64,000 nt of DNA from Eledone cirrhosa (taxonomy: Eukaryota): contig OZ024751.1 of NCBI GenBank assembly GCA_964016885.1, positions 34,224,001-34,288,000 of the forward strand, read 5' to 3'. The notes beneath the pieces were generated by a model, which had not been told where the DNA came from, did not search any database, and worked only from the letters and a program-made list of their open reading frames with translations. The translations under genes and the position numbers were made by a program. Below, one piece after another: positions 47,025 to 47,965 of this stretch; positions within the stretch are counted from its first letter, which is position 1; each line of letters opens with the position of its first letter.

Positions 47025-47965
47025 ATAAATTAATAAAATAATGAATAAACAAAGAAACAGTTCCTTATATTAAAAAAAATTCATCATTTTACGATCGTTT
47101 CTAGGATATATATGTGTTAGAGTTGGTATGCATATTCTATAGATCTATGTACAATATTTATACAAACTATCAGAGGGAATATACATACCTACACATATAT
47201 ATGCTGTCTTCAGAAATAATGATATTTGTTTATTGAAAAAAACAAAGATTCAATACAATAGGTCTGTTTGGGAACAGGTTTTGAATTGACCAATAGAGAG
47301 ATAGTGAGGGTCAGGATAGTAATATAGTAGTAGAAGAACCTTAAATTATGGGTAGAGGAAGGTAGATTTCAGTTTTGGATGGAAAAGAATATTATGAATG
47401 AAGGATTATTTTAGGGAAGAAATAGGTCTTATGTTGACCTCAGAAATAATTTTATTTGTTCATTGAATAAAACCAACAAAGATCTAATATATTCTGTCTG
47501 TTTGGTAAGAGGTTTAGAATTAACCAATATAAAGTTAATAATTGGCCAAATGGTAAAATAGTAGTAATTGAAGCTTATTTTAGGGGTGACAATAGGTCAG
47601 GTGGTCAGTAAAAGGTATACAAGCAGTTGCTGTTATAAAATAGTAATGCCAATACAAATATCTAAGGTGACTAAAGTTTTAAGATAAGAATGTTAGTGAA
47701 AAAAATACATCTATGAAAAGAATATAAATTAATTTAATTGATGGGTATATTTATATTGATAAAATTATACTAATACATATAGATATGATAAATAAGAGTT
47801 AGATGCAGTTGAAAAGTGGTGTTAAAGATGAGGGGAAATTAAAATAATATAAAAATAATATATATATATATATATACTTATATATCCTAGAAACGATCGT
47901 AAAATGATGAATTTTTTTAATATAAGGAACTGTTTCTTTGTTTATTCATTATTTTATTAATTTAT
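47025..47965. mobile_element. Penelope-like remnant with ~88-bp terminal inverted repeats
   Basis: 47025-47112 is the reverse complement of 47879-47965; internal diverged ~230-bp duplication (from 47207 versus from 47437); right end abuts (TA)n. Confidence 0.8.
47081..47222 (-). ncRNA. Hammerhead ribozyme with ~105-nt stem II
   Basis: Minus strand UCAUUAUUU-CUGAAGA-[long imperfect hairpin]-GAA-ACGAUCGU-A-AAAUGAUGA: stem I 9 bp, intact core, palindromic stem III; predicted GUA cleavage at 47090. Confidence 0.75.

What the first reader, a model, noticed from the sequence alone, without database searches (positions are those of the whole stretch)
47025..47965. Asymmetric version: a long 3' remnant with a short inverted copy and a hammerhead whose stem II is about 105 nt
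Seen: the minus-strand ribozyme (47081-47222) has a 9-bp stem I, an intact core, an ACGAUCGU stem III and a long AU-rich imperfect hairpin as stem II. The inverted right arm retains only the 3' half of the ribozyme. There is an internal diverged ~230-bp duplication. Inference: standard length-limited hammerhead searches would miss this motif. The structure looks like an intermediate between a truncated PLE and the symmetric palindromes.
Basis: partly seen in the sequence, partly recalled or inferred. Interest (0 to 1): 0.7.

Follow-up and report, generated by a model that had tools for sequence, protein, structure and literature searches.

The report
Retrotransposon remnant with oversized hammerhead ribozyme
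This is a young, truncated copy of a Penelope-like jumping gene in its textbook lopsided inverted-repeat form; the one unusual thing is a self-cutting RNA motif with a side arm about 105 bases long, seen in one copy and not shown to cut.

Summary
Observation confirmed. Minus strand 47081-47222 holds a type I hammerhead: 9-bp stem I, intact CUGAAGA/GAAA/UA core, palindromic stem III, 105-nt stem II hairpin (z -5.55). A relaxed descriptor finds 5 motifs in the window against 11 in 300 shuffled windows. Corrections: the element runs on to 46890 (135-nt one-sided tail); stem II opens with a C.A mismatch; the duplication has period 230 but aligns over about 180 nt. The layout (5'-truncated copy, inverted shorter copy at its 5' end, one-sided tail, (TA)n flanks) is the published standard for Penelope-like elements (PLEs), so it is one outcome of PLE insertion, not an intermediate towards the two palindromes in the window, which are other families. 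The novelty is the stem II length, about twice the longest in one published PLE table (about 54 nt). Its base matches the 31-nt stem II of a neighbouring family (11 of 14 nt, one compensatory pair). A downstream hairpin and the inverted arm are predicted to block folding. No ORF, second family copy or cleavage datum is available. Verdict: new variant of a known kind, modest interest.

The parts
46847..46889 (.). (TA)n target tract, left flank
46890..47024 (-). 135-nt one-sided 3' tail, absent from the right arm; ends 200 nt past the predicted cut site; likely start point of reverse transcription (inferred)
   Evidence: no significant fold (z -0.45); its 47-codon open frame has no PLE hit
47025..47115 (-). 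left arm, the part repeated in inverted form at the other end
   Evidence: 89 of 91 columns identical to 47876-47965
47030..47092 (-). downstream hairpin (14-bp outer stem, 8-bp inner stem) that uses the stem I 3' strand and the cut site, and so competes with the hammerhead fold
   Evidence: -14.0 kcal/mol, z -4.25, against -3.6 on the other strand; weaker support from the downstream-only shuffle, 16 of 300
47081..47222 (-). type I hammerhead ribozyme motif
47214..47222 (-). stem I 5' strand (pairs with 47081-47089; 9 bp, one U.G)
47207..47213 (-). core CUGAAGA
47102..47206 (-). 105-nt stem II: C.A mismatch, A-U, G-C, C.C mismatch, 12-bp AU/GU-repeat helix, 7-nt bulge, 13-bp helix, two short inner helices
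47090..47101 (-). GAAA, palindromic stem III (47091-47098) and cleavage triplet GUA; predicted cut between 47090 and 47089
   Evidence: two copies of the palindrome form an 8-bp duplex of -10.0 kcal/mol
47200..47373 (-). downstream copy of the internal duplication (ends in stem I 5' strand, core and the first 7 nt of stem II)
   Evidence: score 154 against shuffle mean 30, maximum 51 of 300
47430..47609 (-). upstream diverged copy; its core is broken (CUGAGGU, no GAAA); possibly a dead short hammerhead reaching to 47405
   Evidence: 7-bp stem I partner after UA in 152 of 5000 shuffles; no third copy
47610..47857 (-). U-rich, G-poor body, presumed 3' untranslated region; no recognisable reading frame
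   Evidence: 47% T, 5% G on the sense strand
47858..47876 (.). inner 19-nt TA tract at the inversion junction
47876..47965 (+). short inverted copy: 3' half of the ribozyme plus the downstream hairpin; no 5' core on this strand
47963..48056 (.). (TA)n target tract, right flank

Best explanation
A single recent insertion of an endonuclease-bearing Penelope-like retrotransposon (or a non-autonomous derivative) into a (TA)n tract. Shown: the layout, the hammerhead motif, the near-identical arms, TA microhomology at the inner and right junctions. Inferred steps: (1) the element's protein nicked the (TA)n tract and began reverse transcription about 200 nt downstream of the ribozyme cut site, giving the tail at 46890; (2) it copied about 1 kb of 3' end and stopped in a TA tract; (3) the short arm arose in the same event, most likely by the cDNA end folding back on the (TA)4 run of stem II through a 7-nt self-complementary match and copying about 90 nt of itself before switching to the target (about 55%), otherwise by a second priming from the opposite strand at a nearer start site (about 45%). 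The ribozyme is the element's ordinary pLTR hammerhead, of the weak kind helped by dimer formation through the palindromic stem III, whose stem II has been lengthened distally while the core-proximal pairs were kept. In the parent element it would cut tandem transcripts. At this locus it is probably mostly silent: one copy only, a downstream hairpin takes the stem I 3' strand once about 55 nt past the cut site are made, and a read-through transcript pairs the inverted arm with the 3' half.
For: Layout equals the published PLE arrangement: inverted 5'-truncated copy, tail at one end, (TA)n bias (PMC8557442 passages); inverted terminal repeats of varying size in Drosophila virilis Penelope (PMC2377424 passages); hammerhead pairs 100-700 bp apart on opposite strands and palindromic stem III in PLEs (PMC4209133). 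A purified PLE protein cuts and extends both target strands at AT-rich sites and starts at two internal RNA sites that define the tail (PMC11167929). Two other hammerhead-bearing palindromes in the window have the same (TA)n flanks and one-sided tails. Descriptor null 11 hits in 300 shuffles against 5 real. Mismatch at the base of stem II has precedent: 14 of 34 rows U.U and one motif (two rows) C.A in the PLE hammerhead table (my count); U.U base reported in natural hammerheads. The first 7 pair columns of stem II match those of the 32776-32841 motif at 11 of 14 nt with an A-U/G-C compensatory swap and a shared C.C mismatch (P about 0.001 against re-dealt columns, post hoc). Sense-strand folds are more stable than antisense (-33.8 against -28.7; -14.0 against -3.6). 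Folding predictions: P(stem I) 0.8 in the motif alone, 0.0 from about 57 nt past the cut and in the whole element.
Against: No PLE reading frame or protein homology was found in the element or among the 115 non-repetitive frames listed for the window, which I judged by eye, scanning only 3 of them plus the tail peptide against Pfam; the tail peptide search gave only 2 hits in 1.84 billion proteins, one without a matched stretch and one a repeat protein. The clade is therefore unassigned. No second copy of the family in the window, so conservation of the long stem II is untested. The G10.1-C11.1 pair called highly conserved in PLE hammerheads is absent. U-rich shuffles of the downstream 56 nt also disturb stem I: 84 of 200 gave P 0.05 or less, 24 of 300 were as low as the real sequence and 16 of 300 had as large an energy gap, so the switch reading is borderline. 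The two junction models are not separated by these data.
Confidence: 0.75

Rival explanations
1. The long stem II is private to this copy or sub-lineage: a fold-back or small palindromic insertion landed in the AU-repeat of a short stem II, and the ribozyme is a passenger or is dead. Compatible with the PLE origin.
For: The inner 73 nt is flanked by AU/GU repeats of the kind this genome is full of; the related motif at 32776-32841 has a 31-nt stem II; only one copy is seen.
Against: The arms differ by no substitution away from the junction, so the copy is young, while the hairpin carries bulges and two G.U pairs that suggest an older, kept structure; core, stem I and the base of stem II are intact.
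Confidence: 0.3
2. One reading: a structural intermediate on the way between a plain truncated PLE and a symmetric palindrome, or a symmetric palindrome that lost most of one arm by deletion.
For: All three elements share flanks, tail and hammerhead; a junction in a TA tract also fits a deletion; long palindromes are unstable (own knowledge).
Against: The three are unrelated by blastn; unequal inverted arms are the published normal product; near-identical arms leave little time for stepwise change.
Confidence: 0.12
3. Not a PLE insertion: a MITE or other DNA transposon with 90-bp terminal inverted repeats and a TA target, or a decayed non-LTR retrozyme tandem with 230-nt units.
For: Inverted arms in TA flanks; 230-nt period lies near the unit sizes reported for retrozymes, about 300-350 nt (PMC7229834); no PLE protein found.
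Against: The left arm is not terminal (135-nt tail outside it); the right arm starts inside the ribozyme; only one unit has a whole core and the units are 74% alike, whereas active retrozymes are defined by at least two consecutive whole motifs (bioRxiv 10.64898/2026.07.22.740005).
Confidence: 0.08
4. The hammerhead is a chance match in AT-rich sequence.
For: A long spacer relaxes the descriptor; one shuffled hit had a comparably stable spacer; Rfam finds nothing.
Against: 0.003 hits per shuffled window at 9 bp stem I; all 5 real hits lie in inverted-repeat elements between (TA)n tracts.
Confidence: 0.02

Closest known systems
Endonuclease-bearing Penelope-like elements, truncated insertions with inverted pLTR and tail (Craig et al. 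2021, PMC8557442; Schostak et al. 2008, PMC2377424)
   Same: 5'-truncated copy, inverted shorter copy at its 5' end, one-sided tail, (TA)n target, hammerhead near the 3' end
   Different: Tail is 135 nt rather than 30-40; at least 630 nt upstream of the ribozyme without a recognisable frame; clade not assignable
PLE type I hammerheads with palindromic stem III (Cervera and de la Pena 2014, PMC4209133)
   Same: Type I topology, intact core, short palindromic stem III suited to dimers, no canonical loop 1-loop 2 motif evident
   Different: Stem II region 105 nt instead of 7-8 bp; C.A instead of G10.1-C11.1; stem I 9 bp instead of 4-5
Hydra-clade and Chara/Selaginella PLE hammerheads (PMC8557442 File S2)
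   Same: Mismatch at the base of stem II (U.U in 14 of 34 rows; C.A in PLE-X1_cBra); (TA)n insertion in the Hydra clade; a Hydra family is listed from Octopus bimaculoides
   Different: Longest span between the core halves in that table is about 54 nt (PLE-X1_sMoe, my count); the Octopus Hydra-1 ribozyme differs in sequence; four 11-12-nt motifs of this element had 0 hits in the file (line breaks could hide hits)
Anolis Poseidon PAc (Frangieh et al. 2024, PMC11167929)
   Same: Offers the mechanism for tail and two-strand priming; its hammerhead cuts only with the element's protein, which fits a fold blocked by downstream RNA
   Different: No sequence relation tested; tail much shorter; the paper's passages read here do not explain inverted arms
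Non-LTR retrozymes (PMC7229834; bioRxiv 10.64898/2026.07.22.740005)
   Same: Non-coding, type I hammerhead, PLE-derived
   Different: Retrozymes are head-to-tail tandems of whole motifs; here one whole motif, a broken diverged unit and an inverted half

Membership tests
Type I hammerhead ribozyme | Core CUGAnGA ... GAAA ... UH in order | tested here: met
Type I hammerhead ribozyme | Three helices around the core, open end in stem I | tested here: met
   Active fold -36.3 against MFE -38.0 kcal/mol; stem I pair probabilities 0.64-0.97; stem III weak as monomer
Type I hammerhead ribozyme | Watson-Crick pair 10.1-11.1 (usually G-C) | tested here: not met
   C.A mismatch; natural exceptions are published, so this lowers expected rate rather than excluding membership
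Type I hammerhead ribozyme | Match to an Rfam hammerhead model | tested here: not met
   0 hits at gathering score; no hammerhead among 23 hits at E up to 10; the short-stem motifs are missed too
Type I hammerhead ribozyme | Self-cleavage at the predicted site | not testable with these tools
   needs an assay
Penelope-like element (EN+) | RT plus GIY-YIG reading frame | tested here: inconclusive
   None in this truncated copy; tail peptide without PLE hit; the host genome was not available
Penelope-like element (EN+) | Inverted 5'-truncated copy at the 5' end and tail at one end | tested here: met
Penelope-like element (EN+) | Hammerhead with palindromic stem III near the 3' end | tested here: met
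Penelope-like element (EN+) | Insertion in microsatellite or AT-rich target | tested here: met
   (TA)n on both sides
Penelope-like element (EN+) | Dispersed family with variable 5' truncation | not testable with these tools
   no second copy in 64 kb; no eukaryotic genome collection
Non-LTR retrozyme | Two or more consecutive tandem units with whole hammerheads | tested here: not met
   upstream unit has CUGAGGU and no GAAA
MITE / TIR DNA transposon | Inverted repeats at both extreme ends | tested here: not met
   135 nt of non-repeated tail lie outside the left arm

The most novel reading that the evidence does not exclude
A PLE lineage in this genome carries a functional hammerhead sub-type defined by a conserved mismatch motif at the base of stem II (N.A, pair, G-C, C.C, AUA/UAU) that replaces the usual loop-loop contact and tolerates a stem II from 31 to 105 nt; in this family a downstream hairpin makes it a co-transcriptional or protein-gated switch, and the AU repeats of stem II are the hot spot for the fold-back that builds the inverted arm. 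Such ribozymes would be missed genome-wide, and some PLE clades reported to lack canonical hammerheads might hide them.
Probability: 0.18. Interest if true: 0.62.

Novelty: new variant of a known kind. Interest (0 to 1): 0.3.

Why it matters
The insertion layout is known and adds little. If the 105-nt stem II is a family trait and cuts, it extends the natural size range of PLE hammerheads about twofold over one published table, shows that spacer-limited descriptors undercount them, and bears on the open question of why some PLE clades seem to lack hammerheads (PMC8557442 reports 'half cores' with the second half 35-50 nt away, including cephalopod Naiads). The competing hairpin offers a testable reason for the protein dependence reported for one PLE hammerhead. 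Chemically a long stem II is not surprising: natural type II hammerheads have an open stem II (PMC3088659) and engineered stem II insertions are common (own knowledge).

Tried and rejected
Rfam, whole window at gathering score: 0 hits; E-value scans of the three elements: only generic hairpin matches. Second copy of the family in the window: none. Exact 21-nt search of the bacterial and archaeal genomes: 0; blastn against plasmids and phages: no match. Tail peptide (47 aa) as PLE N-terminus, a resemblance recalled from memory: 0 of 4 candidates scored, 2 uninformative hits, no Pfam family, no Atlas hit: not confirmed. Six-frame reading of the body: no GIY-YIG or RT motif by eye. Third copy of the 230-nt unit: scores 36 and 31, within shuffles. 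Homology of the upstream unit's last 56 nt to the ribozyme 3' half: not significant (122 to 1195 of 2000 shuffles over six settings). MAFFT of the three families did not align the cores, so their relation rests on the stem II base motif alone. Four short motifs against the Craig et al. consensus files: 0 hits; Octopus Hydra-1 and the end of Octopus bimaculoides Naiad look unrelated by eye. Sigma-70 promoter scan is irrelevant for a eukaryote and showed fewer sites than shuffles. Literature: nine searches showed no listing of a PLE hammerhead with a stem II near 100 nt or of octopus PLE hammerheads beyond PMC8557442; 'long helix II' in PMC13725137 means 6 bp. Lunse et al. 2017 and the Terminon paper, the two likeliest places for such variants, are not held, and figures and figure-only supplements of the others could not be seen, so absence from print is not established.

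Full report
Setting. The window is AT-rich, microsatellite-dense eukaryotic DNA (287 tandem-repeat rows) with a SINE-like repeat in about ten copies. From memory this looks like octopus DNA; no call tested that.

Observation. On the minus strand 47081-47222 reads as stem I (9 bp, one U.G), CUGAAGA, a 105-nt hairpin, GAAA, CGAUCG, UA and the stem I partner. The 105-nt region folds at -33.8 kcal/mol, z -5.55, with 0 of 200 shuffles as good. The hammerhead-shaped fold lies 1.7 kcal/mol above the minimum. A descriptor allowing 6-150 nt in stem II finds 5 motifs in the window and 11 in 300 block-shuffled windows; only 1 shuffled hit reached a 9-bp stem I, though one shuffled hit had an equally stable spacer. 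The other four real motifs are the paired hammerheads of two symmetric palindromes, 19279-19699 and 32426-32885. The right arm 47876-47965 is an inverted copy of 47025-47115, 89 of 91 columns identical. The duplication is real (score 154, shuffle maximum 51 of 300) with period 230 and about 180 alignable nt.

The element does not stop at 47025: 135 nt more run to the (TA)n edge at 46890 and are absent from the right arm. Both palindromes have the same one-sided tail (about 30 and 88 nt). Stem II starts with a C.A mismatch where most hammerheads have G-C. A 19-nt TA tract sits at the inversion junction.

What it is. Craig et al. 2021 (PMC8557442; passages, section 11 and parts 1, 2, 52, 53 of 59 of the supplement seen) describe PLE insertions as 5'-truncated, often with an inverted 5'-truncated copy at the 5' end, a tail at one end and a bias for (TA)n. 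Schostak et al. (PMC2377424; passages) show inverted repeats of varying size in Penelope. Cervera and de la Pena (PMC4209133; parts 1-2 of 4 read) report PLE hammerheads with palindromic stem III, mostly as single motifs of truncated copies and sometimes as opposite-strand pairs 100-700 bp apart. Every architectural feature here fits. The assignment has no protein support: the body has no recognisable frame, and the 47-codon frame in the tail, which reminded me of a PLE N-terminus, found no PLE relative. The clade is open. The palindrome at 19279-19699 has a Hydra-clade-like motif (CUGAAGAU, short stem, UGAA; compare).

How it formed. Frangieh et al. (PMC11167929; parts 1-2 of 4 read) showed that a PLE protein cuts and extends both strands of AT-rich DNA and starts reverse transcription at two internal RNA sites, which define the tail. 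Here the long copy starts 200 nt past the cut site and runs about 1 kb to a TA tract. The short arm starts in the (TA)4 run of the stem II 3' strand, with 7 nt of self-complementary match, and ends at a TA overlap with the target. Fold-back of the cDNA end explains this directly and also explains perfect palindromes with 1-nt and 5-nt centres; a second priming from the other strand explains it too. I favour fold-back slightly. Both are inference. The arms show no substitution away from the junction and one homopolymer indel, so the insertion is young. The three elements share no blastn similarity beyond short A/T words: they are three families with one mechanism, and the asymmetric one is not a stage between the others.

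The ribozyme. In File S2 of Craig et al. 14 of 34 rows have U.U at the base of stem II and one motif has C.A, as here; the longest span between core halves is about 54 nt (my counts). U.U bases are also reported by Perreault et al. (PMC3088659; passages) and for an axolotl motif that cleaves weakly as monomer and better as dimer (PMC7229834; passages and section 15). The first seven pair columns of stem II here and in the 32776-32841 motif agree at 11 of 14 nt, with a shared C.C mismatch and an A-U/G-C swap (P about 0.001 against re-dealt columns, chosen after seeing the match). This suggests common descent and constraint near the core, with growth of the distal hairpin from about 31 to 105 nt. 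Whether the growth is a family trait cannot be told from one copy. Stem III pairs about 5% of the time in a monomer, while two copies give an 8-bp duplex of -10 kcal/mol, the usual dimer type (review PMC6765202; passages).

Likely state at this locus. A hairpin at 47030-47092 pairs the cut site and stem I 3' strand with a downstream repeat of the stem I 5' strand (z -4.25, sense strand only). Stem I is predicted at about 0.8 until 49 nt past the cut and at 0.0 from 57 nt; forcing the hammerhead then costs 7-9 kcal/mol. The control tempers this: shuffled U-rich downstream sequence often disturbs stem I as well (84 of 200 at P 0.05 or less; 24 of 300 as low as real, 16 of 300 with as large a gap). 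In a whole-element minus-strand transcript the inverted arm pairs with the 3' half. So the copy is probably silent or a source of double-stranded RNA; in the parent element the ribozyme may act in a short co-transcriptional window or with help from the element's protein, as reported for PAc.

The duplication. The upstream unit ends in a broken core (CUGAGGU) and 7 nt of stem II. A UA followed by a 7-bp stem I partner lies 23 nt further on (152 of 5000 shuffles), but there is no GAAA and sequence similarity to the 3' half is not significant. It may be an old dead short hammerhead from a partial tandem; this is a lead only. It does not meet the retrozyme definition of two whole consecutive motifs (bioRxiv 10.64898/2026.07.22.740005; part 1 of 5 and passages).

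Detectability. Of spacer limits 17, 30, 50, 100 and 150 nt only the last recovers the motif; the published core search used 7-17 nt. Rfam misses all five motifs, so length is not the only cause.

Novelty. Nine literature searches (listings and abstract starts) showed no PLE hammerhead with so long a stem II. The Octopus vulgaris repeat annotation (PMC13282606; parts 1-2 of 3) counts 336 recently active Penelope-like insertions in 31 families and does not discuss ribozymes in the parts read. PMC13725137 and PMC6431247 were seen as passages only. Two key papers were not held and may contain such variants. Verdict: known insertion type, real motif, one unusual dimension seen once; new variant of a known kind, interest 0.3.

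Noticed in passing
window 19279-19699: Near-perfect 391-bp palindrome in (TA)n with a hammerhead on each strand (19541-19579 +, 19429-19467 -), U.U at the base of a 12-nt stem II as in Hydra-clade PLEs, and a 30-nt one-sided tail.
   Followed up: partly
window 32426-32885: 371-bp palindrome in (TA)n with hammerheads at 32776-32841 (+) and 32557-32622 (-), 31-nt stem II with A.A and C.C mismatches, an extendable stem I of about 8+6+12 bp and an 88-nt one-sided tail.
   Followed up: partly
window 47405-47453 (-): Possible dead short hammerhead in the upstream duplicate: stem I strand, CUGAGGU, a 5-bp hairpin, then UA and a 7-bp stem I partner, but no GAAA.
   Followed up: partly
window 46890-46903: The element's outer end is a small self-complementary 14-nt stretch directly against the (TA)n tract; could mark the reverse-transcription start.
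   Followed up: no
window 47270-47300 and 47495-47530 (-): Both duplicated units keep an ATTGGT motif and a CCAAACAGAC motif upstream of the core; candidate pLTR promoter elements.
   Followed up: no
window 46481-46644, 12189-12389, 18844-19079, 28661-28874, 34518-34740, 37055-37405, 51612-51807, 60856-60973, 62979-63197: A SINE-like repeat family in about ten copies, 70-95% alike.
   Followed up: no
window 17636-18882 (+): Broken frames that look like the endonuclease and RT region of a Tx1/L1-type LINE (recalled motifs; Pfam gave no RT hit).
   Followed up: partly
window 26935-26990, 36314-36443 (copy at 60244-60305), 48463-48658: Further short palindromic or inverted elements without a hammerhead core.
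   Followed up: no
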